A stretch of 64,000 bases of DNA, taken from Candidatus Moranbacteria bacterium RIFOXYA12_FULL_35_19 (GTDB lineage: Bacteria > Patescibacteriota > Minisyncoccia > Moranbacterales > UBA2206). The position numbers and the translations under genes are program-made. Positions 1 through 61,132 of this stretch are shown here, piece after piece; the first letter of the stretch is position 1; each line of letters opens with the position of its first letter. Location: contig MFSE01000021.1 of NCBI GenBank assembly GCA_001784805.1, positions 4,241-68,240 on the forward strand, read 5' to 3'. The notes under the pieces were generated by a model. The model saw nothing but the letters and a program-made list of their open reading frames with translations. It did not search any database and was not told the DNA's origin.

Positions 1-3000
1 ATCAAACTTGCTGTGCCAGTTTCGCACATTTGGTTTTTGCGTGGAGTGCCTTCTAAAATTGGTTTGGCGCTAGGTATGGGGGTGCAAGATTTGGAAAAGA
101 TCGTTTATTTTTCCAGCTATATTGTTTTGAATGTGGATGAAAATGAAAGAGAAAAAACATTGATGCAACTTGATCAAGAATTTAAAAATAAACAAAAAGA
201 AATAGTGAAAAATTTCTCGGCTGATACCAAAGAAGGTTTGGAAAAGCAGGAAGAATTGAAAAATATTTACCGTTCTTCCAAAGAGGAATTGAAAAATTTA
301 CATAAACTACAAATAATTTCCGAAATAGATTATTTCAATTTGTCCACAAAATACGCGCAAGTTTTTTCTGCTTCAATTGGAGCAGAAGCGATTAGAAATA
401 TTCTTTGCGGGATGGATGTGAAACAAGAAATAGAAAAACTTAAAAAAAGTTTGCAAGAAGATGAAAATCAAGACAAAACGAAAATACTTAAAAGGATAAA
501 ACTTTTTCAAGGATTTTTGAAAGCCGGGATGCAATTGGAATGGATGCTTCCAACAATTATTCCGGTAATTCCACCGGACCTTCGTCCAATGGTGGCTTTG
601 GATGGTGGACGCTATGCGACAAGTGATCTAAATGATTTATATCGAAGAATCATCAACCGCAATAATCGTTTGAAAAAATTGATTGAAATTGGGGCGCCGG
701 AAGTGATCACGCGAAACGAAAAAAGAATGCTTCAAGAAGCAGTAGATGCTCTTTTTGACAATAGCGCTAGGCGTTCTCAAGTGAGCGTGGCAGCTTCGAC
801 CGGTCAAAGAAGACCTCTTCGATCTTTAGCGGATACTCTCAAAGGCAAGCAAGGACGATTCCGTCAGAATCTTTTGGGAAAACGAGTAGATTATTCCGGA
901 CGAAGCGTGATTGTGGTTGGTCCGACTTTGAAATTGCACCAATGTGGATTGCCGAAAAAAATGGCTTTGGAACTTTTCAAACCATTTATTATCAATAAAC
1001 TAATCGAAAGAGAATTGGCTTACAATGTTAGAAGCGCCGGAAAAATGGTGGAAGGAGAAATGGAAGAGGCCTATGATATACTAGACGAAATAATTTCTCA
1101 TCATTATGTGCTTTTGAATCGTGCTCCAACCTTGCATCGGCTTTCTATTCAAGCTTTTCAACCAATTTTGATTGAAGGAAAAGCCATCCAAATTCATCCG
1201 ATGGTTTGCAGTGCTTTCAACGCTGACTTCGATGGTGACCAGATGGCGGTGCATGTTCCTCTTACTGACAAAGCGCGCTGGGAATCAAAAAATTTGATGC
1301 TTTCTTCACAAAATCTTTTGAAGCCAGCCAGTGGAGAACCGATTACCACGCCGACTTTGGATATGGTTTTAGGTTGTTATTATATTACGCATATAGTTTC
1401 CGGTACTAAAGGCGAAGGGAAAATATTTTCCAATTTTGATGAAGCGATTTTAGCCAATGAACTTGGACAAGTGGATGTACGAGCCAAGATAAAGGTCAGA
1501 CATGAAAAAGAAATGCTAGAAACCTCGGTGGGAAGGATAAAATTAAATTTGATTATTCCTAAAGAAATTGGTTTTATCAATCAGGAAATGACCAAAAAAG
1601 AATTGAAACTTTTAGTGGCGAAAGTTTTGGAAGTTTGCGGGCGTGAAGCGGCGGCTATTTTTGTGGATAAGATAAAAGATTTAGGATTTAGCTCTGTTAC
1701 TAAATCAGGAATCAGTTGGGGAATGGATGATTTGGTGATTCCGGAAAATAAAAAAGAGATAATAAAAAAAGGCGAAGAAAAAGTGGAAATAATCAAAAAG
1801 CAATACAATATGGGGCTTTTGACTGAAGAGGAAAGAAAAAATAAAGTGATTGAAATTTGGAATGACGCTAAAAATCAAATTACCGATGCGGTTCGCGCTT
1901 CTATTGATAAGGAAGGTCCAGTTTATTCTATGGTTTATTCTAAAGCCAGAGGTTCTGAATCAGTGGTAGTGCAGATGGCGGGAATGAAGGGACTGATGGC
2001 GGGACCAACGGGAGAAACTATTGAACTGCCGGTTAAGAGTTGTTTCAAGGAAGGCTTGAATGTTTTGGAATATTTTATCTCTACTCACGGAGCGAGAAAA
2101 GGTATGGCGGACACGGCCCTTCGAACAGCTACAGCTGGATATCTAACTCGAAGACTAGTAGATGTGGCGCAAGATATTATCGTTCGAGAAGAAGATTGTA
2201 AAGATAAAATCGGAGCTTATCTTTTCCGAGAAGATTCAGACAGAATTGGTCAAGGTTTTGCCAGCCGAATAATTGGTCGAGTACTTACAGAAGATTTGCT
2301 CGATCCTAAGACGGGAGAAATTATTGCGGAAAAAGGCAATATGATAACCAAAGAGCAAGGAGAAAAAATTGATAAGTTGGCGATTGCTAAAGTAAAAATC
2401 AGAACGGTAGTCACTTGCAAAACTTCGCGAGGAGTTTGCCAAAAATGTTATGGCACTGATTTGGGACGAGGAAATTTGGTGGAAATCGGACAAGCAGTGG
2501 GAATTGTGGCAGCGCAAGCCATTGGTGAACCAGGAACACAGCTAACTATGCGTACTTTCCATATTGGAGGTATTGCTGGATCTGACATTACCCAAGGACT
2601 TCCTCGCGTGGAAGAAATTTTTGAAGCCAGACCACCTAAGGGTGAAGCGATTATTTCTGAAGTTAACGGTAAAGTGCTTTCTGTGGAAAAACTGGATAAA
2701 AATTTTGTGATTAAAATTGAAGCGCAGGATAAACAAAAAACTATCAAGGAATATCAAATACCTTCCGGCAGTACGCTCAAAATTTCCGAAGGAGAATTGG
2801 TGGGCAAAGGTTCTCAATTGTCTGAAGGACATATTGATCTCAAAAAACTTTACAAGACAATGGGCTGGGAAGAAGTGTACCGCTATATCATTCGCGAAAT
2901 TCAGGAAGTTTATGCGGCGCAGGGTGAAGGTATCAATGATAAACACATTGAAGTGATTGTCCGCCAAATGTTCAGCCGGATATTGATAATCAAAGAAGGC

Positions 3001-9521: not shown

Positions 9522-9522
9522 T

Positions 9523-9629
9523 TTTACGAACTACGAAAATAATACGAAATACGAAAATACGAAAATAAAATAAAATACGGAAAATGTGTATAAATTTTTT
9601 CGTATTTCGCTTATTTCGTAGTTCGTAAA
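9523..9629. repeat. TACGAAA-family intergenic hairpin element
   Basis: Arm acgaactacgaaaataatacgaaatacgaaaatacgaaa; loop; arm tttcgtatttcgcttatttcgtagttcgtaa. Confidence 0.8.
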
Positions 9630-9635
9630 TGCCTT

Positions 9636-10646: not shown

Positions 10647-10670
10647 TGGAGTGATACAATATCAGTGAGG

Positions 10671-10737
10671 TTTTACGAAATACGAAATAAGCTAAATACT
10701 AAAAATTTTTCGTATTTCGTTTATTTCGTATTTAGTA
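10671..10737. repeat. TACGAAA-family intergenic hairpin element
   Basis: ttttacgaaatacgaaataagc ... tttcgtatttcgtttatttcgta. Confidence 0.75.
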
Positions 10738-10769
10738 AAGAATAAAAAATAATAATTAAACAAAAGTCT

Positions 10770-11795: not shown

Positions 11796-11969
11796 TTACT
11801 GAAGAATTAAAATTTTTCCAAAATTGAACTCAAATTCTAAATTTTATAAACAAAAATTTCCCTCAATCAACGGCTACCAATGGAAATTTTTGGATAAAAT
11901 TTGAATTTTCCCGCCTGCCGGCGAGGCAGGTCAAACAGTAATTTCGCAAAAATTTTAATTCTTCAGTTA
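11796..11969. mobile_element. MITE-like element: ~21-bp terminal inverted repeats enclosing ~130 bp with an internal GC hairpin
   Basis: Left arm ttactgaagaattaaaattttt is the reverse complement of right arm aaaaattttaattcttcagta; internal cccgcctgccggcgaggcagg hairpin. Confidence 0.45.
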
Positions 11970-14096: not shown

Positions 14097-14654
14097 TTAG
14101 GCGCGGGAAACATACTCGCCTCGTTCAGTGTTGATGATAATTTCGTCACCCTCTTTGATGAAAAGTGGAGTGGAAACTTTCAAGCCCGTTTCAACTGTCA
14201 CAACTTTTCCGCCGGTGGAAACAGTGTTGCCTTTTATTCCTGGGGGAGCTTCGATAACTTTCAAAGTTATTTTTACCGGTAGCTCAATGTTGATCGGATT
14301 GCCACTCCAATTCAAAATTGAAACTTCCGTGCCTTCTTTTAAATAATTGATATTGTCTCCCAAAGCACTTTTGGAAAGAGTAAATTGCTCATAGGATTCA
14401 TTGTCCATAAAATTATAATTGTCATTTTCTTTGTAGGTGTATTGAGCTTTGGTTTTAGAAATGTCAGCTTCCTCGACTGATTCGGCGCCTTGAAAAGTTT
14501 TTTCTAATACTGTTCCATTGGCAAGATTTTTAAGTTTTGTGCGAAGCACTGATCCGGCCCGTCCCGTTTTAGAATGCTCATGATAAAGCACGATATAAGG
14601 AATATCATTTAGAATAATATTAGTTCCGGTTTTGATGTCTGAAATATTTAACAT
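14097..14654 (-). CDS. efp: elongation factor P
   Basis: N-terminus MLNISDIKTGTNIILNDIPYIV...KTGRAGSVLRTKLKNL; three OB-like domains. Confidence 0.9.
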   Translation of the reverse strand: MLNISDIKTGTNIILNDIPYIVLYHEHSKTGRAGSVLRTKLKNLANGTVLEKTFQGAESVEEADISKTKAQYTYKENDNYNFMDNESYEQFTLSKSALGDNINYLKEGTEVSILNWSGNPINIELPVKITLKVIEAPPGIKGNTVSTGGKVVTVETGLKVSTPLFIKEGDEIIINTERGEYVSRA

Positions 14655-14738
14655 AAAAGCATATTAACATTTTAACATATTAACAAAAAAAACAAATTAA
14701 GCATGCTAAAATGCTAAAATGTTAATATGATAGAATGA
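14655..14738. repeat. GCTAAAAT/TTAACAT-family hairpin element (paired with 16145-16225)
   Basis: gcatattaacattttaacatattaac ... gcatgctaaaatgctaaaatgttaatatg. Confidence 0.7.
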
Positions 14739-14739
14739 T

Positions 14740-14961
14740 TTACCGTGCGACAAAAGGCACTAGCGCCATTGTTCTGGCTTTTTTTATGGCGTTAGCTAAA
14801 GTTCTTTGATGATGGGTGCAAGTGCCGTGTCGTTTAGGCGGATAAATTTTTCCTTGTGAATTCATAAAACGACGCAAAAGATAAGCGTCCTTGAAATCAA
14901 TTTTTTCAATCTTGTTCTGGCAAAAATAGCATAATTTTTTTTCAGTTTGTTGTGTTTCCAT
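14740..14961 (-). CDS. rpsR: 30S ribosomal protein S18
   Basis: CYFCQNKIEKIDFKD...RHGTCTHHQRTLANAIKKARTMALVPF. Confidence 0.9.
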   Translation of the reverse strand: METQQTEKKLCYFCQNKIEKIDFKDAYLLRRFMNSQGKIYPPKRHGTCTHHQRTLANAIKKARTMALVPFVAR

Positions 14962-14966
14962 AATTA

Positions 14967-15057
14967 TAGTTTTACGAAATACGAAATTAATACTAAATAC
15001 GAAAGTACGAAAGGGGAATTTAGTTGTTTCGTATTTCGCTTATTTCGTAGTTCGTAA
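14967..15057. repeat. TACGAAA-family hairpin element between rpsR and ssb
   Basis: ttttacgaaatacgaaattaatactaaatacgaaagtacgaaa ... gtttcgtatttcgcttatttcgtagttcgtaa. Confidence 0.85.
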
Positions 15058-15060
15058 TTG

Positions 15061-15546: not shown

Positions 15547-15550
15547 AATA

Positions 15551-15639
15551 GTTTTACGAAATACGAAATTAATACTAAATACGAAAGTACGAAAGAGGAG
15601 TTTTAATGTTTCGTATTTCGCTTATTTCGTAGTTCGTAA
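15551..15639. repeat. TACGAAA-family hairpin element between ssb and rpsF; near-identical to 14967-15057
   Basis: About 90% identity to the upstream copy over ~90 bp. Confidence 0.85.
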
Positions 15640-15642
15640 TTG

Positions 15643-16143
15643 TTAAATATTAAGTATTTCTTCTAACTTTTTATCAAGGTCGTCATTTTTTGGAGATTCT
15701 GGCTGGGTTTTTTCGGAATTTTTTTCGAGACTAACTTCGGGAGTTTCTTTTATTCCAGCCTTTTTTTCTATAATTTCCTTTTTTTTGGCTTTGTTTTTTT
15801 GAACAGTTTCTTTTTTGGTCAAATCCTCCATTCTTTCGTTTTTAGTTTTGAGTTCTGGCAAGTCTTGTGCTTTGCTCAAAATAAATCTGGCAATATTAGT
15901 GTTAAGATTAAATTTGGCGGTAATTTCTTTTAGATTTTGAGTATCTTCCAGATTGAATCGGCGGGCAATGTAGATTCCGTGATTTTCTTTGCCGACAGTG
16001 TAAGAAAGTTTTCTTTTTTCTAGCGTTTCTTTTTCCAGAAACTCTCCACCAGCATCTTTTACGATTTTTTCCACTTCAGACTTAATGTTTTCTAGCTCGT
16101 TTTCTTTCGAAGCGCCGACTAGATAGAAAATTTCATAGGTCAT
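15643..16143 (-). CDS. rpsF: 30S ribosomal protein S6 with C-terminal acidic extension
   Basis: MTYEIFYLVGASKENELENIKSEVEKIVKDAGGEFLEKETLEKRKLSYTV S6 core. Confidence 0.85.
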   Translation of the reverse strand: MTYEIFYLVGASKENELENIKSEVEKIVKDAGGEFLEKETLEKRKLSYTVGKENHGIYIARRFNLEDTQNLKEITAKFNLNTNIARFILSKAQDLPELKTKNERMEDLTKKETVQKNKAKKKEIIEKKAGIKETPEVSLEKNSEKTQPESPKNDDLDKKLEEILNI

Positions 16144-16144
16144 A

Positions 16145-16225
16145 TTGTCATTTTAGCATGTTAGCATATTAACAAAAAGTTATTAGCATTTGTTAAAATG
16201 CTAAAATGTTAATATGTTAAAATGA
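16145..16225. repeat. GCTAAAAT/TTAGCAT-family hairpin element (paired with 14655-14738)
   Basis: ttttagcatgttagcatattaac ... gttaaaatgctaaaatgttaatatg. Confidence 0.7.
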
Positions 16226-16239
16226 ATTAAATTAAATCC

Positions 16240-16340
16240 GTTCAAAGAAAGTCCTTGACGGATGGTAGTTTTCTTATCTCATCGGGGTCCGCCTTCGCTA
16301 AAGCTATGGCGGGACAAGCGAGAAAACTATTGGACTTTTT
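16240..16340. repeat. nested GC-containing palindrome (~95 bp)
   Basis: Outer aaagtcc/ggacttt, middle tagttttct/agaaaacta, inner gtccgcc/ggcgggac. Confidence 0.6.
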
Positions 16341-16384
16341 TGATTGATTATAGGTTAGCAATAAATTTAGTTTAAGTCAAGGGC

Positions 16385-16494
16385 TTTACGAAATACCCGC
16401 CTCGACTCGCGGAGACCGCTTGTCGACGCGAGGCGGGCGAAATAAGCGAAATACTAAAGTACGAAAAGGGAACTTAATTGTTTCGTATTTCGTA
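16385..16494. repeat. TACGAAA-family hairpin carrying a 42-bp GC-rich palindromic insert at 16396-16437
   Basis: cccgcctcgactcgcggagaccgcttgtcgacgcgaggcggg sits inside the AT-rich arms. The insert is related, in reverse complement, to the in-frame element in dnaE at 58494-58571. Confidence 0.75.
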
Positions 16495-16498
16495 AAAA

Positions 16499-17551
16499 CT
16501 AAATTTTGAATTCTATTACATCGCCATCATTTACTATGTATTCTTTGCCTTCCGTGCGTAGTTTGCCGATTTCACGAGCTTTGGCCCAAGAGCCAGCTTT
16601 CAAAAGTTCATCCCATTGGATAACTTCGGCGCGAATAAATTTATCTTTGAAATCATTATGAATGGCGGTGCCGGCAATTGGCGCGGTGGAATTTTTTCGG
16701 ATCGTCCAAGCGCGAGTTTCATCGGTTCCCGTTGTGAGAAAAGTGATCAGGCCTAAAATTTCATACGCCTTGATTATCAATTCATCTAAATTAGATTTTA
16801 TTCCAAGTTCATTTGCTTCATCTTCCGACATTTCCAAAAGTTCTTCTTCGATTTTGATATCTAATTTTATATGATTTTTATTTTCTAAGACAGGCGATAA
16901 TTTTTGGCTGATGTTGTCGGTGTTAAAAGCATAAAGAAAAGGTTTCATTGTGAGCAGAGAAAGTTCGCGGACGATAATTTCGGCATTCTCTTCGGATAAA
17001 TCTAAATTAGTTTCATTGGCTAGACGGCCTTCTTCTAAATTTTTTTGGATTTTTTGCAAAACGGTTAATTGAATGTCGGCTCCTTTTTTGTTTCCACGAG
17101 CATCTTTTTCAATTCTTGTGCGGACTTTTTTGACTGTTTCTAAATCGGCGATAATTAGTTCAGCGTTGATTATCTCAATATCATTTTCCGGATCAATAAT
17201 ATTGTGCACATGAATAATTTTGTCATTTTGAAAAACTCGAACCACTTGGACAATCGAATCCACTTCGCGAATAGTCGCCAGAAATTTATTTCCGAGTCCT
17301 TCACCCGTAGAAGCACCCTTGACCAAGCCGGCAATATCGACAAATTCGATAACGGTCGGAATAATTTTGGCGCTATGGGACATCTCGGCGAGTTTTTCCA
17401 AACGAATATCAGGCACTTTTACAATTCCAACATTAGGTTCGATGGTGCAAAAAGGATAATTCTGAATATCTACCGGATTTTTGGTAAGAGCCTTAAAAAG
17501 TGTAGATTTTCCAACATTAGGCAGTCCAACAATTCCAATTTTTAGCGACAT
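16499..17551 (-). CDS. ychF: ribosome-binding ATPase YchF (Obg-family GTPase)
   Basis: MSLKIGIVGLPNVGKSTLF G1 motif; TGS-like C-terminus. Confidence 0.9.
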   Translation of the reverse strand: MSLKIGIVGLPNVGKSTLFKALTKNPVDIQNYPFCTIEPNVGIVKVPDIRLEKLAEMSHSAKIIPTVIEFVDIAGLVKGASTGEGLGNKFLATIREVDSIVQVVRVFQNDKIIHVHNIIDPENDIEIINAELIIADLETVKKVRTRIEKDARGNKKGADIQLTVLQKIQKNLEEGRLANETNLDLSEENAEIIVRELSLLTMKPFLYAFNTDNISQKLSPVLENKNHIKLDIKIEEELLEMSEDEANELGIKSNLDELIIKAYEILGLITFLTTGTDETRAWTIRKNSTAPIAGTAIHNDFKDKFIRAEVIQWDELLKAGSWAKAREIGKLRTEGKEYIVNDGDVIEFKI

Positions 17552-29352: not shown

Positions 29353-31299
29353 ATGGAAAACCCCAATTTTCTCAAACAAAAATTCAATCTTCACAATGCT
29401 AAAGAAGTCAAGGCGGCGGCTAAGCACCCTGATGAAAAAATTCCCAACAATCCAGATGACCAAATCCAAAATTATCTGAATCGTTTGGAAAACTTAGTCA
29501 TCGATTCGGAAAAGAAACAAAAAAGAAAAATGCTTGACGGAGAGCAACGCCCACGAGCTCTTTTTCTTCTGCGAGAAATGCTCCTGAATAAATATGTAAG
29601 ACAAAATAAAGAAAAAATGGCGGAGGGTGCCGTTAGAGTGGAAGAGCGAGCGGCCAGAGAATTGGGAATTGACGCGCATTATGGCGAAGATGAAATTGAA
29701 CAAAGAGGCAATATTGCAGTTAGTGATTTGGAAAAATCATTAGATAATTGGATAACTTATCTCACTGATGCTAACGAATCATATCCGACTTGGTTTCGTT
29801 ACTATGCTTTTCGTAGCATTTTAGGTCTTGGCGATTATGATAAAGACAAAGGAGAATTCCCTAATCGTTCTCAAGGTACAGCTAAACTTTTTCCTGATAT
29901 TGATCGAGGAGCTTTGGCTTACATCCGAGATATCATTGAAGCGGAAAAAGATCCAATAATTTTGGAAAGACTAAAAAAAGCCCAACAAGCTAATCAAACT
30001 CCCGAAGATCAACAAATCACCAAGGAAAAAGCTGAAAAATTTGCCAAACTTTCTTTTGCCAAGCAATATAAAGAAGGAATCAAGCAAGCTGGCGAAATTA
30101 CTCCCGAAATGCGAGAGATTACCGAAGGCAAGTGGGTGAAATATCAAAAAGATACTGATCCCACCGCTCTTTGGGTAAGCTTGCAAAACAAAGGTACAGC
30201 TTGGTGCACGAAAGGTTTTGCCACTGCCGAAACTCAACTGCAAGGCGGAGATTTTTATGTTTATTACACTCTCGACAAACAAGGCAAACCAACTATTCCG
30301 AGAATTGCCATCAGAATGCAAGACAATCAAATTTTTGAAACTCGTGGTGTTTCTGATAATCAACAAAATCTTGAAAGCAATATGATTGACATTGCCGAAA
30401 AGAAAATGGATGAACTTCCTGGTAAAGAAAAATACAAAAAAACTTCTGCTGATATGAAACAACTGACTGAAATTGAAAAGAAAACCAAATCTAATCAAGA
30501 ATTAACCAAGGAAGAATTAGTTTTTCTTTATGAAATAGATGATAAAATTCAAGGTTTTGGATATAATGAAGACCCAAGAATAAAAGAGATTAGGGAGCAA
30601 AGAAAACCAAATATCCAAAAAGACGCATCAATCATTCTTGAATGTGAATCCAATCAAATCGCCAATAAACCAGAAGACATCAATGAAAATACCAAGGCAT
30701 ATATTGGAGAACTAAAATCAGAAATTTTCGAATCAATTCAAAAATATAACATTGAAAATATTTATACCTCATTTCCTGAAGGTAAAATAGAAAAATTTGA
30801 GATGGAACTAGGAGGAAGAACAAAACCAGAAATTGAAAGTGAATTGGAAAAAAGAAAAAAAGCAGAGGGAGATGAAAAAATATACACTTCTGATTATGCT
30901 GAAAGTATGCTAAAAAAACCAGAATTTTTTGTGCAAGAAAAAAAAGAACAATCCAGTTTCGTTAAAATAAAAGTAGGAGATCTCGGTTTTCCTAATGGAG
31001 CAACTGTGCAAGAAATTTATGAAAAAGCCGAAAAACTAGGCTTGGAACTGTGTCCACCAGAAACAGGACCAACAATCAGATTGGATTATGAGAAAATTTT
31101 TCAAAAAGAACAACCAAGAAGAGAATATTTTTGGATTGCGATGAAACAAATAGCCGGCTCTGACGGCTATCCGAGCGTGTTCCGTGTGGGTCGCGGCGAT
31201 GGCGGCGAGTCGTGGCTGGGTGACCGTTGGGCGCGGCCTGACGGCGAGTGGGGTGCTGGCATTGGGGTTGTCTTTCGCCTCCGCAAATTTGAAACTTAA
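29353..31299 (+). CDS. DGR target protein with C-terminal C-type-lectin-like (DUF1566/FGE-like) variable domain
   Basis: The C-terminus ...SDGYPSVFRVGRGDGGESWLGDRWARPDGEWGAGIGVVFRLRK is encoded by VR; no signal peptide; N-terminal 590 aa unassigned. Confidence 0.8.
   Translation: MENPNFLKQKFNLHNAKEVKAAAKHPDEKIPNNPDDQIQNYLNRLENLVIDSEKKQKRKMLDGEQRPRALFLLREMLLNKYVRQNKEKMAEGAVRVEERAARELGIDAHYGEDEIEQRGNIAVSDLEKSLDNWITYLTDANESYPTWFRYYAFRSILGLGDYDKDKGEFPNRSQGTAKLFPDIDRGALAYIRDIIEAEKDPIILERLKKAQQANQTPEDQQITKEKAEKFAKLSFAKQYKEGIKQAGEITPEMREITEGKWVKYQKDTDPTALWVSLQNKGTAWCTKGFATAETQLQGGDFYVYYTLDKQGKPTIPRIAIRMQDNQIFETRGVSDNQQNLESNMIDIAEKKMDELPGKEKYKKTSADMKQLTEIEKKTKSNQELTKEELVFLYEIDDKIQGFGYNEDPRIKEIREQRKPNIQKDASIILECESNQIANKPEDINENTKAYIGELKSEIFESIQKYNIENIYTSFPEGKIEKFEMELGGRTKPEIESELEKRKKAEGDEKIYTSDYAESMLKKPEFFVQEKKEQSSFVKIKVGDLGFPNGATVQEIYEKAEKLGLELCPPETGPTIRLDYEKIFQKEQPRREYFWIAMKQIAGSDGYPSVFRVGRGDGGESWLGDRWARPDGEWGAGIGVVFRLRKFET
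31154..31286 (+). repeat. DGR variable repeat (VR)
   Basis: 133 nt aligning to 31628-31760; about 22 mismatches, every one at an adenine of TR. Confidence 0.9.
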
Positions 31300-31315
31300 A
31301 TTTTTTGAATTTTTG

Positions 31316-31333
31316 ATCCGCCAGTTGGCGGAT
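31316..31333 (+). promoter_or_regulatory. GC-rich hairpin 30 nt downstream of VR (atccgcc-agtt-ggcggat)
   Basis: 7-bp GC stem with a 4-nt loop, placed just 3' of the VR-TR homology as in characterised DGRs. Confidence 0.6.
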
Positions 31334-36466: not shown

Positions 36467-36540
36467 TGGGCGATTCAAGATTCGAACTTGAGACCTCGTC
36501 ATTATCAGTGACGCGCTCTAACCAACTGAGCTAATCGCCC
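36467..36540 (-). tRNA. tRNA-Ile (GAU); CCA not encoded
   Basis: gggcgattagctcagttggttagagcgcgtcactGATaatgacgaggtctcaagttcgaatcttgaatcgccca cloverleaf. Confidence 0.9.
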
Positions 36541-36590
36541 GCATGTGGACCCTATCCCGCTTTAAGCGGGATCACCCCTCAGATTTTATG
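36541..36590 (-). repeat. degenerate duplicate of the tRNA-Ala 3' end (T-arm replaced by a cccgcttaaagcggg hairpin)
   Basis: ggggtgatc[...]gatagggtccacat repeats the last ~33 nt of tRNA-Ala. Confidence 0.6.
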
Positions 36591-36663
36591 TGGACCCTAT
36601 CGGGCTCGAACCGATCACCCCCTGCTTGCAAAGCAGGTGCTCTACCAAATGAGCTAAGGGCCC
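36591..36663 (-). tRNA. tRNA-Ala (UGC) with G3:U70; CCA not encoded
   Basis: gggcccttagctcatttggtagagcacctgctTTGCaagcagggggtgatcggttcgagcccgatagggtcca; anticodon UGC. Confidence 0.9.
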
Positions 36664-47733: not shown

Positions 47734-49530
47734 CTACTTAATTTCTGCAATAACCTTTTCAATAAACTTTTCAACTTTCATAACTTCTTGCTTGCCCGCC
47801 ATAGCTTTAGCGTCGGCGGGCTCTTTTTCCTTTCTTGATCGAACAGCGACAGAATTATCGGCTTCTTCTTTTTCTCCCACTACTAGCATGTATGGAATTT
47901 TTTGTTTTTCGGCTTCGCGAATTCTTTTGCCAAGCGATTCTGATTCGTCGCTAATTTCTACACGAATATTATTTTCTAATAATTGCGAATATATTTTTTG
48001 CGCGTAAGAATTAAATTTTTCACTCACTGGTAAAATAGCCACTTGCACTGGAGAGAGCCAAAGCGGAAACGCGCCAGCGAAATGTTCAATGAGAAGAACC
48101 AAAAATCTTTCGTAAGATCCTAAAATTGCACGATGCACCATAACTGGAGGAACTTTTTCACCTTTTTCATTTATATACTCAAGGCCGAATCTTTTTGGAG
48201 TGGCAAAGTCAATTTGGACAGTAGGAATTTGAATTTCTCGTCCAGTCGCATCCTTAAACATAAAATCTAATTTTGGTCCATATAATGCTGCTTCGCCCTC
48301 TCTTTTTTGAGCATCTAATTTTATTTCATCAGAGATTTCTTGAAGCATTTTTTCACAAATGTCCCAGTCTGATGATTCGCCTATATATTTTTCTGGATGA
48401 TCATAGTCTCTAACAGAAAGAGAAACCCAATGATTATCCCATAAACCAATAGAACTATATAAATCCTTAATAATATTTACCATATTTTTAATCTCATTTT
48501 TTACTTGATCAACTCTACAAAAAGAATGACCATCTTCAACTGTGATGGCATAAACCCTAGAGAGTCCACCGACCTCGCCGGTTTTTTCAGCTCGGTACAT
48601 TTTATCTGATTCCATATATCTTATAGGTAAATCTTTGTAGGATCTTGTTTTAGAAGCATAAAGCTGGGTATGATGAGGGCATTGAACTGGTTTTAGGACA
48701 AAATTATGTTTTTTATCTGATGTCACATGAAACAATTCATCGCCAAATTTTTTAGCATGCCCAGAAGTTTCAAAAAGTTCAATCTTTGCTAATGCCGGAG
48801 CCGATACTTTTTCAAATCCATAATGGCGACAAATTTTTTCTACTTCTTTTTTAAGCTCCTCTATTATAGTTGTTCCTTTGGGAGTAAAAAGGGGAAGTCC
48901 TGGACCGACTAAATCAGAAAAACAAAACAGATCTAATTCTTTCCCAAGTTTTCGATGATCTCTTTTTTCCGCTTCTTCGAGCATATGCAAATATTCATCT
49001 AATTCTTTTTTAGTTTCAAAGGCGACGCCATAAATTCGCTGAAGCATTTTGTTTTTTTCATCTCCTCGCCAATAGGCACCGGAAATTTTGGTGAGTTTGA
49101 AGGCGTCAAAAGGAATTTCGCCAGTAGAATCAAGATGTGGGCCAGAGCAGAGGTCGATGAAGTTGCCGGATTTGTAAACAGAAACCATTTTGTCTGCCGA
49201 TGAGGCAGATTTTTTCTCTAAATCCTTAATCAACTCAACCTTATATGGTTGTTTCGCCTTTTTGAAATCTTTCAAAGCTTCTTCGATTGAAATTTCTGCT
49301 TTTTCAAAAGGATGATTGGCTTTGATAATAGCTTTCATTTTTTCTTCCAAAATTTCCAAGTCTTCTGGAATGAGAGTTCGCGGAAGATCAAAATCATAAT
49401 AGAATCCGTTTTCAATCGCTGGTCCAATGGCAAACTTAGCTTCCGGAAACATTTGGAGAACTGCTGATGCTAAAACATGGGAAGTTGAGTGGCGCAAGAT
49501 GTCTAAATTAGTTTGTGATTTTTTTGGCAT
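47734..49530 (-). CDS. thrS: threonine--tRNA ligase (no N-terminal TGS extension)
   Basis: Class II aaRS motifs, HRKLGKELDLF, anticodon-binding C-terminus. Confidence 0.9.
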   Translation of the reverse strand: MPKKSQTNLDILRHSTSHVLASAVLQMFPEAKFAIGPAIENGFYYDFDLPRTLIPEDLEILEEKMKAIIKANHPFEKAEISIEEALKDFKKAKQPYKVELIKDLEKKSASSADKMVSVYKSGNFIDLCSGPHLDSTGEIPFDAFKLTKISGAYWRGDEKNKMLQRIYGVAFETKKELDEYLHMLEEAEKRDHRKLGKELDLFCFSDLVGPGLPLFTPKGTTIIEELKKEVEKICRHYGFEKVSAPALAKIELFETSGHAKKFGDELFHVTSDKKHNFVLKPVQCPHHTQLYASKTRSYKDLPIRYMESDKMYRAEKTGEVGGLSRVYAITVEDGHSFCRVDQVKNEIKNMVNIIKDLYSSIGLWDNHWVSLSVRDYDHPEKYIGESSDWDICEKMLQEISDEIKLDAQKREGEAALYGPKLDFMFKDATGREIQIPTVQIDFATPKRFGLEYINEKGEKVPPVMVHRAILGSYERFLVLLIEHFAGAFPLWLSPVQVAILPVSEKFNSYAQKIYSQLLENNIRVEISDESESLGKRIREAEKQKIPYMLVVGEKEEADNSVAVRSRKEKEPADAKAMAGKQEVMKVEKFIEKVIAEIK

Positions 49531-56123: not shown

Positions 56124-56210
56124 GTTTTACGAACTACGAAATAAGCGAAATACGAAACAATAAAACTTTCTTTTCGTATTTCGTTAGTTTCGTAGTTCGT
56201 AAATTAAAAA
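56124..56210. repeat. TACGAAA-family hairpin element
   Basis: ttttacgaactacgaaataagcgaaatacgaaac ... ttttcgtatttcgttagtttcgtagttcgtaa. Confidence 0.85.
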
Positions 56211-57419: not shown

Positions 57420-60400
57420 TTACCAAATATCAACCTTCCCCTCCGGCACAATTATTTTCAAAGCTTTTTCGAGCTCTGTGGTGTTTTGGATGCAGTAGGG
57501 GGTTTCGAGCTTGGATCCGCCAATGGAAAGATATACTTTCATAGCACCTAGTTCGCAACGATCAAATAGGGAGGAGAGATTTTTTAGGATGGCTTTGTCG
57601 AAATTTGGTGGGAGGGTAATAATTAATCTGGAAGATTTATTTGCCCTCTCTTGTCCCGACAAAGTCGGGATATACTCTCCCAAGGGGAGAGGAGGATTTT
57701 GAAGAGATTTTTTTGTAGGCTCACCGCCATTGTTTCTTTGCGTGTGGAGAATTCTTTTGAAATTTTCTAATTCTTGCTGGTTGATTGATTTGGCGCTGTC
57801 GCAAAGCAATTTGAATTCGCCGTCTTTGTCGGAAATTTTTCCCGTGGCTAAAATAATTTTGTCTACTTCCCAGATTGAACCGGTGGCTTCTAGAGTTTTG
57901 GGAAAAATCAAAATTTCCATTTGAGAAGTCGTATCTTCAATGGTGGCAAAAGCCATCATTTTTTGATTTTTGAGATAAATCTTTTTTATTTTGGAAATTA
58001 TTCCGCCGATGGAAACGGTTTGTCCAACCAGTTGAGGATTTATATTTCGAATTGGCACGGCCATTTTTTCTAAATAATCTTGATAATCTCGAACCGGATG
58101 ATCGCTAATATAAAGTCCAAGGAGTTCCTTTTCCCAAGCAAGCTTTTCTTTTTTAGAAGCCTCCACGGAAATCTCCAATTTTATTTCTGGCAATTTCATA
58201 TCTGCTTCTCCAAAAAGACTATTTTGTTTAGTACTTGAAATTTTTTCCAAATTTTTGGAGTGAGCGAGAATGTTTTCAATAGAAGATAAAACGGCATTTC
58301 TTTCGGCCAATTCTTCTAGCGCACCAACTTTTGAGAGAGCCTCAATGGATTTTTTATTCAAATCTTTATGCTTTACTCTTTCAATGAAATTAGTTAGACT
58401 CAAAAATTTTCCGCCTCTTTTTCTTTCTTCGACAATTTCATGAGCGACTGTGTGGCCGACATTTTTTACCGCATTTAATCCAAAGCGGATTTTCCCGCCT
58501 CGCGTCGACTCGCCTCGATCCGACAATCGAGTCGGAGCGGGCGAGCGATCGTCTCCGCGAGTCGAGGCGGGTTTAGTATTATTTTCTTCATTCATGATCA
58601 CGGCAAACTGCTCAAAACTTTCATTGACATTCGGGGACAGAACTTCGATGCCCATTTCTCGACACTCGGCAATTTCAATGGCGACACGATCAATATTGTC
58701 TTGATCAGAAGTGAGAAGCGCGGCCATAAATTCGGCTGGAAAATGCGCTTTCAGATAAGCGGTTTGATAGCCGACTAGCGCATAACACGCGGCATGACTT
58801 CTATTAAACCCATATCCCGCAAAAGGTTCGATGTAGGCAAAAACTTTTTCTCCAATAGTTCCGGCGATGCCTTGTTTCATACAGCCTTCAATGAATTTAT
58901 GTTTTTGCTCGGTAATCAGCGCAAAGATTTTTTTACCCATTGCTTTTCGAAGTACATCGGCTTCACCAAGAGTGAATCCGGCCAAGGCTTGAGCGATTTG
59001 CATCACTTGCTCTTGATAGACTGCCACACCGTAAGTTTTTTCTAAAATCGGTTTCAAATTCGGATGCAAATATTTAATTTCTTTCTCGCCGTGTTTTCTG
59101 GCGATAAAATCCGGAATCCAATCCATAGGACCGGGGCGATATAGCGCTACCATAGCAATAATGTCTTCAAGAACATTGGGCTTCAAGAGTTTTAGATATC
59201 TTTTCATTCCAGAACTTTCTAGTTGAAATACGCCGGTGGTGCGAGCTTCTTGCAAAAGGCGAAAAGTTTTTTTGTCATCCAGTGGTATATCGTCAATGTT
59301 GATTTCTTTTTGGCGAGTTTTTTTTACGATCTTAAGCGTGTTTTGAATAATAGTTAAATTTTTTAGTCCCAAAAAGTCCATTTTCAAAAGGCCAATTTTT
59401 TCCACAAAACTATATTTAGTCGAAGAAGAATATTGCGTCACAGTGCCGTCGCCTTTGCCGGTTATTTTTTGCAACGGAGTATATTCACTCACAGGTTCTT
59501 TGGTGATAACTACTCCGCAAGCATGCATCGAGGCATGACGCACCACACCTTCGAGCCGTCCGGCGCTGTCAATTAATTTTTTTCCTCCCTCATTATTTTT
59601 ATGCAAATCGCTAAATTCTTTGACATTTTCTAAAGCATCGGAAATTGTAGAAAACATCGGAATCATTTTAGCGGTTTTGTCGCAAAAGTCATAAGGCAGA
59701 CCGAGCGCCCGACCAGCGTCGCGGATGGCAGCGCGGGCGGCCATAGTTCCAAAAGTGATGATTTGCGCCACATGATCATTGCCATATTTTTTTCTCACAT
59801 ATTCCAAAACTTCATCTCTTCTGTCATCGGCAAAATCCATATCGACATCAGGCATAGAAATTCTTTCAGGATTCAAAAATCTTTCAAATAGTAAATCGTA
59901 TTTTATCGGATCAATATTAGTGATACCGATGAGATAGGAAACGAAACTTCCGGCAGCGCTACCGCGGCCGGGGCCAACCACGATGCCTTGTTCTTTGGCC
60001 CAATTGACAAAATCTTGCACGATCAAAAAGTAAGAAGCAAAACCAGTTTTTCTAATCACATCTAATTCATATTCCATTCTTTGTTTTTGCTCGGAGTCAA
60101 TATTCTCGCCAAATCTTTTTTTGAGTCCATCTTCGGTAAGACGCCGAAGATAAGTTTCAGCCGTATAACTTTGCGGAACATCAAATTCCGGAAGTTGAGT
60201 CTCCCCAAGTTTTATAGTAAGGTTGCATTTATCCACGATTTCTTGAGTATTAGCCAGTGCTTCGGGAATATTTTTGAAATGCTCGGCCATTTCCTCGGGG
60301 CTTTTGAGATAGAGCTCAAAAGCCATCAAATTCATGCGATTAGTTTCAGTAACTTTTTTGTTAGTCTGAATACACAGTAAAATATCTTGAATTTCATTGT

Positions 60401-61043
60401 CTTCTTTTTTTACATAGTGAATGTCATTGGTAGCGACTAGAGGAATATCTAATTTTTTAGAAATTGCGACAAGGGCATTATTGGCAATACTTTGGTTTTC
60501 AAATTTCGGATGATGTTGGATTTCTAAATAAAAATTACCTTTACCAAAAATTTCTTGATATTCTAGCGCCAACTTTTCTGCTTTTTCAAGATTGCCGGAA
60601 ATGGCGGTGGAAGGAACTTCTCCTTCGGCGCAAGCTGATAGCCCGATTAGTCCTTCAGAATATTTTCGAAGAATTTCTTTGTTGATTCTGGGTTTGTAAT
60701 AGAATCCTTCCAAATGAGCAATGGAAATTAGTTTCATCAAATTCTTATAGCCTTTTTCATTTTTGCAGAGTAAAATCAAATGATAGCGAGTTTTATCTTC
60801 TTGAGTATTATTTTTACTTAGATAATCTCCCGCGGTGAGATACATTTCACAGCCGATAATTGGTTTTATTCCTCGCTCTTTGGCTTTGATATAAAACTCA
60901 ATGGCGCCATAAAGCACGCCATGATCAGTAATGGCGAGAGAATCCATTCCCAATTCTTTGGCACGATCAAGAATGTCATCGACCTTGGCGAGACCGTCTA
61001 ATAGTGAATAGTGAGTATGGACATGGAGGTGGGTGAATTTCAT
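57420..61043 (-). CDS. dnaE: DNA polymerase III alpha subunit, carrying two in-frame GC-rich palindromic insertions
   Basis: PHP domain MKFTHLHVHTHYSLLDG, polymerase core, OB-fold; 1207 aa. Confidence 0.95.
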   Translation of the reverse strand: MKFTHLHVHTHYSLLDGLAKVDDILDRAKELGMDSLAITDHGVLYGAIEFYIKAKERGIKPIIGCEMYLTAGDYLSKNNTQEDKTRYHLILLCKNEKGYKNLMKLISIAHLEGFYYKPRINKEILRKYSEGLIGLSACAEGEVPSTAISGNLEKAEKLALEYQEIFGKGNFYLEIQHHPKFENQSIANNALVAISKKLDIPLVATNDIHYVKKEDNEIQDILLCIQTNKKVTETNRMNLMAFELYLKSPEEMAEHFKNIPEALANTQEIVDKCNLTIKLGETQLPEFDVPQSYTAETYLRRLTEDGLKKRFGENIDSEQKQRMEYELDVIRKTGFASYFLIVQDFVNWAKEQGIVVGPGRGSAAGSFVSYLIGITNIDPIKYDLLFERFLNPERISMPDVDMDFADDRRDEVLEYVRKKYGNDHVAQIITFGTMAARAAIRDAGRALGLPYDFCDKTAKMIPMFSTISDALENVKEFSDLHKNNEGGKKLIDSAGRLEGVVRHASMHACGVVITKEPVSEYTPLQKITGKGDGTVTQYSSSTKYSFVEKIGLLKMDFLGLKNLTIIQNTLKIVKKTRQKEINIDDIPLDDKKTFRLLQEARTTGVFQLESSGMKRYLKLLKPNVLEDIIAMVALYRPGPMDWIPDFIARKHGEKEIKYLHPNLKPILEKTYGVAVYQEQVMQIAQALAGFTLGEADVLRKAMGKKIFALITEQKHKFIEGCMKQGIAGTIGEKVFAYIEPFAGYGFNRSHAACYALVGYQTAYLKAHFPAEFMAALLTSDQDNIDRVAIEIAECREMGIEVLSPNVNESFEQFAVIMNEENNTKPASTRGDDRSPAPTRLSDRGESTRGGKIRFGLNAVKNVGHTVAHEIVEERKRGGKFLSLTNFIERVKHKDLNKKSIEALSKVGALEELAERNAVLSSIENILAHSKNLEKISSTKQNSLFGEADMKLPEIKLEISVEASKKEKLAWEKELLGLYISDHPVRDYQDYLEKMAVPIRNINPQLVGQTVSIGGIISKIKKIYLKNQKMMAFATIEDTTSQMEILIFPKTLEATGSIWEVDKIILATGKISDKDGEFKLLCDSAKSINQQELENFKRILHTQRNNGGEPTKKSLQNPPLPLGEYIPTLSGQERANKSSRLIITLPPNFDKAILKNLSSLFDRCELGAMKVYLSIGGSKLETPYCIQNTTELEKALKIIVPEGKVDIW
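57643..57695. repeat. GC-rich compound palindromic element (family 1) in-frame in dnaE
   Basis: gccctctcttgtcccgacaaagtcgggatatactctcccaaggggagaggagg encodes PPLPLGEYIPTLSGQERA; compare the miaA insertion SLPLGEMS. Confidence 0.8.
58494..58571. repeat. GC-rich palindromic element (family 2, cccgcctcg...cgaggcggg) in-frame in dnaE
   Basis: 78 nt = 26 codons (TKPASTRGDDRSPAPTRLSDRGESTR), absent from E. coli DnaE at this position; the reverse complement matches the intergenic copy at 16396-16437. Confidence 0.8.
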
Positions 61044-61046
61044 AAT

Positions 61047-61132
61047 GTTTTACGAAATACGAAATAAGCGAAATACGAAACGATTAAACTTCATTTTCGT
61101 ACTTTCGTATTTCGTTCATTTTGTAGTTCGTA
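61047..61132. repeat. TACGAAA-family hairpin element upstream of dnaE
   Basis: ttttacgaaatacgaaataagcgaaatacgaaacg ... ttttcgtactttcgtatttcgttcattttgtagttcgtaa. Confidence 0.85.

What the first reader, a model, noticed from the sequence alone, without database searches (positions are those of the whole stretch)
16240..16437. GC-rich palindromes embedded in the AT-rich ychF-rpsF spacer; one is the partner of an in-frame dnaE insertion
A 95-bp nested palindrome at 16240-16340 has an aaagtcc/ggacttt outer stem and a gtccgcc/ggcgggac inner stem. A 42-bp GC hairpin, cccgcctcgactcgcggagaccgcttgtcgacgcgaggcggg, is inserted inside a TACGAAA hairpin. Its reverse complement shares termini and an internal segment with the 78-nt in-frame insertion in dnaE at 58494-58571. 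GC-rich elements nested inside AT-rich elements point to successive waves of invasion by selfish palindromic elements.
Basis: seen in the sequence. Interest (0 to 1): 0.5.

Follow-up and report, generated by a model that had tools for sequence, protein, structure and literature searches.

The report
GC-rich hairpin mini-elements invading genes
The GC-rich hairpins in this AT-rich groundwater bacterium's ychF-rpsF spacer are copies of two widespread families of tiny (27-45 base) insertion elements that also sit, in frame, inside essential genes such as dnaE and thrS, much like the "selfish" palindromes of Rickettsia but apparently undescribed.

Summary
The 42-nt hairpin A1 (16396-16437) and the 78-nt in-frame dnaE insertion A2 (58494-58571) share their first 16 and last 21 nt exactly. 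Both belong to a family I call A: 39/42/45-nt, 78% GC, free of stop codons in all six frames. Close relatives give clean empty sites with no target duplication in dnaE, in the orthologous spacer and in a tRNA-Glu gene. About two thirds of copies lie inside ORFs. Of those, 72 of 73 are multiples of three and 49 of 73 use one frame (PASTRGD..STRGG).

The "95-bp nested palindrome" is not a selfish AT-rich element. It is a conserved, promoter-preceded rpsF leader with the architecture of the S6:S18 leader. Its variable tip carries a copy of a second hairpin family, B (about 27-30 nt), which also sits in frame in thrS and occurs in more than 119 metagenome contigs of 31-74% GC.

In other genomes, A lies directly beside small stand-alone GIY-YIG nuclease genes inserted at tRNA genes (8 of 8 cases). 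That makes the nuclease a candidate mobiliser, but this step is inferred, not shown. I found no published description.

The parts
16396..16437 (-). A1: 42-nt family-A GC hairpin. The canonical orientation, CCCGCCTCGCGTCGAC-AAGCG-GTCTCCGCGAGTCGAGGCGGG, is on the minus strand. It is inserted at TATTTCG^TATTTCG in one arm of the AT-rich palindrome.
   Evidence: The covariance model scores it 69.5 bits. A paralogous empty site lies at 61048-61075. The orthologous empty site is in L250.
58494..58571 (+). A2: 78-nt composite family-A element in frame in dnaE (gene on the minus strand). It encodes PASTRGDDRSPAPTRLSDRGESTRGG, between NNTK and KIRFGLNAVKNVG.
   Evidence: It is absent from DnaE of relatives at 85-86% identity. 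The DNA empty site in L013 is aag^aaa, with no duplication. It maps to a hairpin turn in Taq Pol III alpha.
58510..58542 (+). 33-nt diverged A-like hairpin nested in the apical loop of the 45-nt outer element of A2.
   Evidence: The covariance-model alignment splits A2 into 58494-58541 and 58542-58571. Comparable composites occur in L033, L039, L069, L087 and L114.
16383..16498 (.). AT-rich palindrome built of TACGAAA heptamers. It is the host of A1 and lies just after the ychF stop. It is one copy of an intergenic repeat family.
   Evidence: TACGAAATAC matches 38 times in the window against 3.6 expected.
16287..16315 (-). B1: family-B GC hairpin, GTCCCGCCATAGCTTTAGCGAAGGCGGAC on the minus strand. 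It forms the tip of helix H2 of the rpsF leader.
   Evidence: It shares 18 nt with thrS and matches the scan pattern exactly. Its copy number at this tip varies among relatives: 0, 1 or 2.
47794..47821 (+). B2: family-B hairpin GCCCGCCATAGCTTTAGCGTCGGCGGGC, in frame in thrS (gene on the minus strand). It encodes PADAKAMAG.
   Evidence: ThrRS of relatives at 84-85% identity lack it (RSRGDK^NQEV). The same insert is present in P0243/4 and P0317. An A-family insert sits at the same site in P0334.
16244..16341 (-). Conserved rpsF 5' leader hairpin. H1 is AAAGTCC/GGACTTT. H2 is TAGTTTTCT/AGAAAACTA. The 3' bulge CCATCCGTCA carries a conserved CC.
   Evidence: It is conserved in six relatives with compensatory changes in H2. 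The architecture matches that described in PMC3895269. There is no Rfam match.
16352..16380 (-). Promoter-like element upstream of the leader: TTGACT, 17 nt, TAACCT.
   Evidence: The layout TTGAC(T/G)-N16/17-TAnnnT appears in all six relatives. The consensus scanner did not call it, because the -10 matches only 3 of 6 positions.

Best explanation
**What it is.** The GC-rich hairpins are copies of short, non-autonomous palindromic insertion elements.

**Shown**
- Family A consists of one imperfect hairpin of 39, 42 or 45 nt. Its 9-bp outer stem is CCCGCCTCG/CGAGGCGGG. Longer forms arise when one element sits in the loop of another.
- It is present in many copies in many CPR (candidate phyla radiation) genomes.
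- It enters DNA as a discrete block with no target-site duplication.
- It is found in either orientation in intergenic DNA, tRNA genes and coding regions.
- Family B (about 27-30 nt) behaves the same way but occurs far beyond the CPR.

**Inferred from the statistics**
- The element is stop-free in all six frames and its length is a multiple of three. Insertions into surface turns of proteins are therefore translated and tolerated.
- Selection then keeps mainly the frame that encodes the hydrophilic peptide PASTRGD..STRGG.
- In this window, A1 landed in the AT-rich palindrome downstream of ychF. A2 landed in a DnaE turn. B1 sits in the dispensable tip of the rpsF leader, and B2 in a ThrRS loop.

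**Inferred from association only**
- The elements are mobilised in trans by small stand-alone GIY-YIG nucleases. In other genomes these genes lie directly beside A or B hairpins in cassettes inserted at tRNA genes.
- The most likely route is nuclease cleavage of a target followed by repair that copies the hairpin.
- No such gene lies in this window.
For: **Family membership**
- The 21-mer occurs in more than 110 stretches of 48 genomes, nearly all CPR.
- A covariance model finds about 20 further copies, each within 1-3 substitutions of the consensus.

**Insertion without duplication**
- dnaE against L013.
- The orthologous spacer in L250.
- Paralogous palindromes in the window.
- An intact and a filled tRNA-Glu in L039.

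**Fit to coding regions**
- 108 of 114 copies have lengths that are multiples of three.
- 73 copies lie in long ORFs. 72 of those are multiples of three, and 49 use one orientation and phase (chi-square p = 4e-28).
- There are no stop codons in any frame.
- The DnaE site is a turn that is absent from solved Pol III alpha. It is also an insertion hot spot in relatives.
- The ThrRS site carries B in several lineages and A in one.

**Family B**
- More than 119 metagenome stretches, in contigs of 31-74% GC.
- The in-frame peptide is PAxAKAMAG(K).

**Nuclease link**
- All 8 close-family GIY-YIG ORFs (PF01541) lie directly beside an A hairpin. Seven are within 65 nt of an exact-21-mer copy, and the eighth (L087) abuts a diverged composite copy.
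- The layout is partial tRNA, then A, then the GIY-YIG ORF, then an intact tRNA.
- B hairpins flank a GIY-YIG ORF on both sides in L181, and lie next to such ORFs in L156, L242, L180 and L148.
Against: - No GIY-YIG gene lies in the window or in the fetched flanks of the source contig. The link rests on other genomes.
- The association could mean only that both prefer tRNA genes.
- No target consensus explains the coding-region insertions.
- Non-coding copies show no replication-strand bias (19 against 19). Target sites are not enriched in hairpin loops. Neither result hints at a mechanism.
- Copies are almost invariant. They are more conserved than their flanks in orthologous pairs: about 14 differences observed against about 67 expected at the flank rate. 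That is unusual for decaying selfish DNA. It suggests constraint or homogenisation, although both members of each pair were selected through an exact 21-mer.
- The hairpin shows sequence conservation, not covariation.
Confidence: 0.6

Rival explanations
1. The hairpins are host-serving signals that are kept or spread because they are useful, not because they are selfish. Candidates are protein-binding sites, DNA-uptake-type sequences, terminators or insulators. Their near-identity would come from selection, or from uptake-biased recombination.
For: - Copies are nearly invariant across phylum-level lineages.
- They are more conserved than flanking coding sequence in orthologous pairs.
- Uptake sequences in other bacteria also occur in coding regions with frame biases (general knowledge).
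- B often sits after tRNA genes, followed by a T-run, like a terminator.
- A1's right arm followed by TATTTCG was called terminator-like.
Against: - The elements appear as sharp 39-45-nt blocks at sites that are empty in close relatives.
- They disrupt tRNA copies.
- They nest inside each other.
- They are absent from the orthologous spacer of a genome that carries at least 8 other copies.
- Known uptake sequences are 9-12 nt cores, not 45-nt hairpins.
Confidence: 0.12
2. The hairpins do not move on their own. They are ends or scars of GIY-YIG cassettes, or they spread only by recombination or gene conversion between existing copies and by horizontal transfer of gene segments.
For: - The hairpin is an integral part of every GIY-YIG/tRNA cassette seen.
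- Recombination between the duplicated tRNA segments of a cassette would leave exactly the solo-A tRNA seen at L039 6116-6233.
- Many insertions are shared by orthologues, so they are old and inherited vertically.
Against: - A cassette carrying an ORF could not pass through dnaE, thrS or other essential genes without inactivating them.
- 73 of 114 copies are nevertheless solo and in frame in ORFs.
- Unrelated sites share no flanking homology that could drive conversion.
Confidence: 0.2
3. The two hairpins in the spacer evolved locally as regulatory structures: a ychF terminator and an rpsF leader tip. On this view their resemblance to dnaE and thrS is chance GC-rich similarity.
For: Both lie where hairpins are expected. 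The leader tip is a short GC hairpin even in relatives that lack B (L249, L251).
Against: - The exact 16+21-nt and 18-nt matches have E-values of 1e-4 to 1e-7 within the window.
- There are hundreds of identical copies elsewhere.
- The orthologous spacer lacks A1.
Confidence: 0.03
4. The elements are removed from RNA, like introns, so their position in genes and tRNAs has no consequence.
For: They occur in tRNA D-loops and in an anticodon loop. CPR rRNA genes carry many uncharacterised short insertions at stem-loop tips (PMC11270868).
Against: - The multiple-of-three rule (72 of 73) and the strong bias to one reading frame make sense only if the element is translated.
- tRNA copies that carry the element are accompanied by an intact copy nearby.
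- There is no Rfam intron or ribozyme match.
Confidence: 0.03

Closest known systems
Rickettsia palindromic elements (RPE; Ogata et al. 2000, from my own knowledge; mentioned in PMC1779305)
   Same: They are dispersed palindromic repeats in a reduced, AT-rich genome. They insert in frame into essential protein-coding genes without inactivating them, and also into RNA genes and spacers. One reading frame is preferred and the peptide lies in surface loops. The mobilising enzyme is unknown.
   Different: RPEs are about 100-150 bp, not GC-rich hairpins of 39-45 nt, and are confined to Rickettsia. Family A spans many CPR lineages with near-identical sequence. It is quantised in 3-nt steps, is stop-free in all six frames, and is linked to GIY-YIG genes. 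Sequence homology to RPEs was not tested.
REP / REPIN sequences with RAYT transposases
   Same: They are short (20-40 nt) GC-rich imperfect palindromes, highly repeated. A single-copy nuclease gene flanked by the hairpins is thought to move them in trans. There is no target duplication.
   Different: REPs are extragenic, carry a conserved GTAG head, and associate with a HUH/Y1 (IS200-like) RAYT. Here two thirds of copies are intragenic, there is no GTAG head, and the neighbouring gene is a GIY-YIG nuclease.
Mobile GC clusters of yeast mitochondrial DNA (from my own knowledge)
   Same: They are GC-rich palindromic clusters of 30-60 nt scattered in a very AT-rich genome. They sit in spacers and occasionally in frame in a coding gene (var1). 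They also nest and form tandem arrays.
   Different: They are in a eukaryotic organelle and are unrelated in sequence. A short target duplication is reported for some classes. No GIY-YIG link is established.
Bacterial MITEs such as Correia/CREE elements (review PMC10969869)
   Same: They are small, non-autonomous, multi-copy elements that can sit in transcripts and alter expression.
   Different: MITEs have terminal inverted repeats that flank an internal region, and they make target-site duplications. Three empty sites here show no duplication, and the whole element is a single hairpin.
S6:S18-binding rpsF leader (Fu et al. 2014, PMC3895269)
   Same: This comparison is for the 16244-16341 structure only. 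It lies directly upstream of rpsF-ssb-rpsR. Helix H1 encloses helix H2, with a 3' bulge carrying two conserved cytosines. H2 varies in length and its tip is dispensable.
   Different: The structure ends about 100 nt before the start codon instead of overlapping the Shine-Dalgarno sequence. An alternative terminator-like pairing is predicted. No curated model matched it.
GIY-YIG-encoding insertions in CPR rRNA genes (PMC11270868)
   Same: They are CPR-specific, non-intron insertions that encode GIY-YIG proteins in structured RNA genes. Many short ORF-less insertions lie at the tops or bases of stem-loops.
   Different: They are described for rRNA genes. That paper does not mention a GC hairpin module, tRNA cassettes or in-frame copies in protein genes.

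Membership tests
Rickettsia palindromic elements (RPE) | Dispersed palindromic repeat inserted in frame in ORFs without disrupting them | tested here: met
   73 of 114 copies lie in long ORFs, and 72 of those are multiples of three. The dnaE and thrS insertions are confirmed against orthologues.
Rickettsia palindromic elements (RPE) | Sequence homology to RPE-1..10 consensus (about 100-150 bp) and occurrence in Rickettsia | not tested
   No RPE sequences were available to align. The length (39-45 nt) and the host (CPR) differ, so this is treated as an analogue, not a member.
REP/REPIN-RAYT | Extragenic location | tested here: not met
   About two thirds of A copies are intragenic.
REP/REPIN-RAYT | Conserved GTAG-type head 5' of the hairpin | tested here: not met
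   The consensus begins CCCGCCTCG, and the flanks show no conserved GTAG.
REP/REPIN-RAYT | Associated RAYT (IS200/IS605-like Y1 transposase) gene flanked by the repeats | tested here: inconclusive
   The only recurrent neighbour found was a GIY-YIG ORF. The neighbours were not searched for RAYT genes, and whole genomes were not available.
MITE | Target-site duplication | tested here: not met
   The empty and filled pairs in dnaE, the spacer and tRNA-Glu show no duplication.
MITE | Terminal inverted repeats matching those of a parent insertion sequence | tested here: not met
   The whole element is one hairpin, and no transposase-bearing relative was seen in 1 Mb of loci. The neighbouring IS3 in L246 is unrelated.
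Intrinsic terminator | GC hairpin followed by a T-run at the end of a transcription unit | tested here: inconclusive
   A1's right arm followed by TATTTCGTAA was called terminator-like. A2 and B2 lie inside ORFs, and most A copies have no T-run. Many B copies after tRNAs do have T-runs.
S6:S18 rpsF leader (for 16244-16341 only) | Immediately precedes rpsF in an operon with rpsR | tested here: met
   The gene order is ychF, spacer, rpsF, ssb, rpsR.
S6:S18 rpsF leader (for 16244-16341 only) | Stem-loop H1/H2 with a bulge holding a conserved pair of cytosines, and H2 of variable length | tested here: met
   In the six-sequence alignment, H2 has 4 pairs with compensatory changes. The bulge keeps (T)CCG(T)CA. 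The H2 tip varies from 12 to about 70 nt. The definition comes from PMC3895269.
S6:S18 rpsF leader (for 16244-16341 only) | H1 overlaps the Shine-Dalgarno sequence or lies next to the start codon | tested here: not met
   The hairpin ends about 100 nt upstream of the rpsF ATG in the window, L249 and L250.
S6:S18 rpsF leader (for 16244-16341 only) | Match to a curated covariance model; binding of S6:S18 | tested here: inconclusive
   No Rfam match at E up to 10 in the window or in the B-less L249 spacer. I do not know whether Rfam holds this family. Binding cannot be tested here.
GIY-YIG nuclease cassette | Encodes a GIY-YIG catalytic domain next to the hairpin | tested here: not met
   This holds for the window itself, which has no GIY-YIG ORF. 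It is met in other genomes: PF01541 at E of 1e-12 to 1e-14, beside A in 8 of 8 cases.

The most novel reading that the evidence does not exclude
Families A and B, together with at least two further hairpin types in this window, may form an undescribed superfamily of codon-quantised, stop-free GC hairpin mini-elements. They would be moved in trans by stand-alone GIY-YIG nucleases whose own cassettes home into tRNA (and perhaps rRNA) genes. They would have spread horizontally across CPR phyla, and for B across many bacterial phyla. On this reading they seed new loops in essential proteins and new tips on regulatory RNAs. Their sequence would be kept nearly invariant because the nuclease must recognise it.
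Probability: 0.3. Interest if true: 0.85.

Novelty: new variant of a known kind. Interest (0 to 1): 0.68.

Why it matters
- In-frame palindromic "selfish DNA" has been a Rickettsia curiosity for 25 years, with no known mobiliser.
- A much smaller, sharper and far more widespread counterpart in CPR bacteria, physically linked to a candidate nuclease, would make the mechanism testable.
- It would explain part of the odd lineage-specific insertions seen in CPR proteins and RNAs.
- It would show how new surface loops arise in essential enzymes such as DnaE, ThrRS and ArgRS.
- It would give a marker for horizontal exchange among ultra-small bacteria.
- In practice, these hairpins can break assemblies, mislead gene callers and inflate apparent protein divergence.
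- The finding also flags a probable rpsF autoregulatory leader in CPR bacteria.

Tried and rejected
- **Rfam.** Gathering-threshold search of the whole window, and E up to 10 on the spacer and on the B-less L249 spacer. Only tRNAs and noise were found.
- **Literature.** Full-text searches for the element sequences and for CPR palindromic or MITE-like elements gave nothing relevant.
- **Viral contigs.** A has 0 hits and B has 3, so the elements are not phage-borne.
- **Insertion into loops of existing hairpins.** Prompted by A-in-A nesting, B at the leader tip and the tRNA loops. Rejected in general: 29% of sites against 25% of controls fall in hairpin loops. Coding targets are, if anything, less structured.
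- **Lagging-strand (IS200-like) insertion bias.** Rejected for non-coding copies, 19 against 19 by GC-skew sign.
- **Strong target motif.** Only weak T-rich positions at -3 and -2. A TTCG^TA preference appears inside heptamer-repeat palindromes.
- **Covariation in the A hairpin.** The pairs hardly vary, so this says nothing either way.
- **Element-type peptides in the DnaE and YchF homologue sets.** None found. The extra length of some YchF homologues has other causes.
- **Consensus promoter scan of the spacer.** It found nothing. The promoter call rests on conservation in relatives.
- **99-nt GC-rich stretch at 31169-31267.** BLAST found no copies.

Full report
**Context**

The window is 35% GC. 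It comes from a groundwater Candidatus Moranbacteria, a member of the candidate phyla radiation (CPR, also called Patescibacteria). Its YchF and ThrRS are identical to proteins named for Moranbacteria bacterium RIFOXYA12_FULL_35_19. The same locus occurs in independent ENA, NCBI and JGI assemblies of Rifle aquifer samples, always with the same 355-nt spacer.

All the genes here lie on the minus strand. ychF occupies 16499-17551. The spacer follows, then rpsF (15643-16143), ssb, rpsR and efp. dnaE is 57420-61043 and thrS is 47734-49530, both on the minus strand.

**The observation**

- The region 16240-16340 is a nested palindrome that folds at -31.7 kcal/mol, z = -5.2.
- The region 16396-16437 is a 42-nt, 76% GC hairpin. 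It sits inside a palindrome with perfect 12-nt arms TTTACGAAATAC/GTATTTCGTAAA.
- On the opposite strand it matches the 78-nt in-frame dnaE segment 58494-58571 over the first 16 and the last 21 nt, without a mismatch.
- The shared terminal pattern occurs 5 times in the window against 0.16 expected.

**The 42-mer and the dnaE segment are insertions**

- *DnaE, protein level.* An alignment of DnaE with 120 homologues shows that the closest relatives lacking the segment (85-86% identity) read ...NNTK|KIRFGLNAVKNVG.
- *DnaE, DNA level.* One such relative reads gaa aat aac acc aag^aaa atc cgt. The window reads ...act aaa[78 nt]aaa atc cgc. Nothing is duplicated.
- *DnaE, structure.* Against solved Pol III alpha, the flanks align to adjacent residues (to 884 and from 884 in Taq). 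The insert therefore sits on a hairpin turn just before the helix-hairpin-helix domain.
- *Spacer, paralogues.* The host palindrome is one copy of an intergenic family built of TACGAAA heptamers. Uninterrupted copies read ...GCTTATTTCG^TATTTCGTAAA, for example at 61048.
- *Spacer, orthologue.* In a relative with 86% identical YchF (L250), the spacer has the palindrome but not the hairpin. That genome carries at least eight other copies of the element.

**Family A**

- Most are Moranbacteria.
- Others are Gottesman-, Curtiss-, Woese- and Chisholmbacteria, Saccharibacteria and Paceibacteria.
- A few bins are labelled otherwise.
- Host loci have a median GC of 38%. The element is 78% GC.

The canonical form is CCCGCCTCGCGTCGAC, then 2, 5 or 8 nt, then GTCTCCGCGAGTCGAGGCGGG. 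That gives 39, 42 or 45 nt (11, 51 and 38 copies). Composites of 63 to 129 nt also occur. In all, 108 of 114 lengths are multiples of three.

A covariance model found about 20 further copies that lack the exact 21-mer. All were within 1-3 substitutions of the consensus. The same model resolved the dnaE copy as a 45-nt element with a 33-nt diverged relative nested in its apical loop. Nesting is therefore real.

**Behaviour in genes**

- 73 of 114 copies lie in long open reading frames, and 72 of those are multiples of three.
- 49 of 73 share one orientation and phase, giving PASTRGD(x)SSTRGG (chi-square p = 4e-28).
- The element has no stop codon in any of its six frames.
- Non-coding copies show no orientation bias relative to GC skew (19 against 19). 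The bias in genes therefore looks like selection on the encoded peptide rather than a directional mechanism.
- Several insertions are shared by orthologous genes whose flanks are only 62-95% identical. The part of the element not used for the search is more conserved than those flanks. By my tally, about 14 differences were seen against about 67 expected at the flank rate. The caveat is that both partners were found through an exact 21-mer.

**Targets**

There is no general consensus. Among 37 non-coding sites, about 15 are at TTCG^TA inside heptamer-repeat palindromes of various genomes. About 11 are in tRNA genes, mostly in the D-arm.

In L039, an intact tRNA-Glu (ggttag^gacgtc) lies near a filled copy and near a truncated copy with a 129-nt composite. 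Elsewhere too, an intact tRNA of the same kind lies within a few hundred bases of the filled one.

**A candidate mobiliser**

In eight loci from eight genomes the stretch between the filled, partial tRNA and the intact tRNA encodes an ~85-residue protein. Those tested match the GIY-YIG catalytic domain (PF01541, E of 1e-12 to 1e-14).
- All eight close-family ORFs found in about 1 Mb of fetched DNA abut an A hairpin. Seven are within 65 nt of an exact-21-mer copy, and the eighth (L087) abuts a diverged composite.
- Under random placement within an 8-kb locus, I estimate about 6% per ORF.
- In L022 the same layout uses a different GC hairpin, CCTGCC..GGCAGG.
- In L087 and L121 the partial and intact tRNA 5' parts differ in sequence. 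The partial copy therefore travelled with the cassette.

This association suggests that the hairpins are the miniature, ORF-less partners of GIY-YIG cassettes and are moved in trans. It does not prove it, and the window has no such gene. A published survey reports GIY-YIG ORFs in non-intron insertions of CPR rRNA genes, and many short ORF-less insertions at stem-loop tips. It does not mention hairpin elements (PMC11270868).

**The 95-bp palindrome**

Its outer part has no other copy in the window, but it is conserved in relatives. Six rpsF upstream regions share four features:
- a promoter-like TTGAC(T/G)-N16/17-TAnnnT;
- helix H1, AAAGTCC/GGACTTT;
- helix H2, TAGTTTTCT/AGAAAACTA, with four pairs showing compensatory changes;
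- a 3' bulge keeping (T)CCG(T)CA.

It differs from the described leader in three ways. It ends about 100 nt before the start codon. It has an alternative terminator-like pairing. It has no Rfam match.

**Family B**

Only the tip of H2 is foreign. There the window has GTCCCGCCATAGCTTTAGCGAAGGCGGAC. L250 has a variant of it, and L248 has two tandem units. L249, L251 and L253 have only a short native tip.

- This hairpin shares 18 nt with one inside thrS.
- ThrRS of relatives at 84-85% identity read RSRGDK^NQEV. The window and its 90% relative have PADAKAMAG(K) inserted. A 72% relative has the same insert, and another relative has a family-A insert at the same site.
Host contigs range from 31 to 74% GC, so B is not confined to the CPR.
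- Most B copies are intergenic. They often follow a tRNA and precede a T-run. About 20 lie in ORFs, most often as PAxAKAMAG.
- B hairpins flank a GIY-YIG ORF on both sides in L181, and adjoin such ORFs in four other loci.

**Verdict**

The window carries solo copies of at least two families of very small GC-rich palindromic insertion elements. Two more hairpins, at 11909-11930 and 31313-31333, also have copies elsewhere.

The elements work like Rickettsia palindromic elements. They also resemble REP sequences and yeast mitochondrial GC clusters in some respects. They fail the defining tests of REPs (extragenic, GTAG head) and of MITEs (target duplication).

The reading of the large palindrome as an invaded selfish element is wrong for its outer part, which is a probable rpsF regulatory leader. 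I found no description of these elements in the searchable literature, but that library is incomplete.

Noticed in passing
window 9522-9635, 10670-10740, 14968-15060, 15550-15642, 16383-16498, 56125-56205, 61044-61132: Many intergenic spacers are filled by AT-rich palindromes built of tandem TACGAAA-type heptamers. TACGAAATAC matches 38 times against 3.6 expected. Relatives use other heptamers at equivalent places: TTTCATG, ATTCGAG, ATTCGCA. Their nature (terminators or a separate repeat family) is unknown. They are a preferred landing site (TTCG^TA) for family A.
   Followed up: partly
window 16145-16225 and 14650-14740: Related ttagcat/atgctaa/ttaacat inverted repeats lie just upstream of the rpsF and rpsR start codons. 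They occupy the ~100 nt between the leader hairpin and the rpsF ATG.
   Followed up: no
window 11909-11930: A third GC hairpin, CCCGCCTGCCGGCGAGGCAGG, lies in the recA-ndk spacer. It has copies in relatives (L225 three times, L106, L085, L080). A similar CCTGCC..GGCAGG hairpin fills the D-loop of the partial tRNA-Leu beside a GIY-YIG ORF in L022.
   Followed up: partly
window 31313-31333: A fourth GC hairpin, ATCCGCCAGTTGGCGGAT, lies just after ORF 29353-31299. It has copies in L108 and L132.
   Followed up: partly
window 31169-31267: A 99-nt stretch of about 70% GC lies at the 3' end of ORF 29353-31299 (...GYPSVFRVGRGDGGESWLGDRWARPDGEWGAGIG...). It is strongly folded (-46 kcal/mol). No copy was found in any fetched locus. 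Its origin is unexplained.
   Followed up: partly
DnaE homologues P0001-P0120; L010 12461-12529: The DnaE turn before IRFGLNAVKNVG is an insertion hot spot in Moranbacteria, with unrelated inserts of 5-40 residues in about 15 of 120 homologues. The 91% relative carries a different palindromic insert there (gcggatg...catccgc).
   Followed up: partly
L246-L248, L252 (ychF-rpsF region of relatives): In relatives the DNA just downstream of ychF holds reverse-transcriptase genes, an IS3-type transposase and a diversity-generating retroelement (bAvd plus RT). This spacer is a general landing zone for mobile DNA.
   Followed up: no
L010 496-537, 7668-7712, 17552-17593: The 91% relative of the source organism has three family-A copies within 18 kb around dnaE. 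One is in frame in argS. None is at the window's dnaE site, which shows turnover between close relatives.
   Followed up: partly
window 36556-36570: A small hairpin, CCCGCTT.AAGCGGG, lies between two tRNA genes (36467-36540 and 36591-36663). It gave a weak hit to the family-A model (12 bits) and is probably an ordinary spacer hairpin.
   Followed up: no
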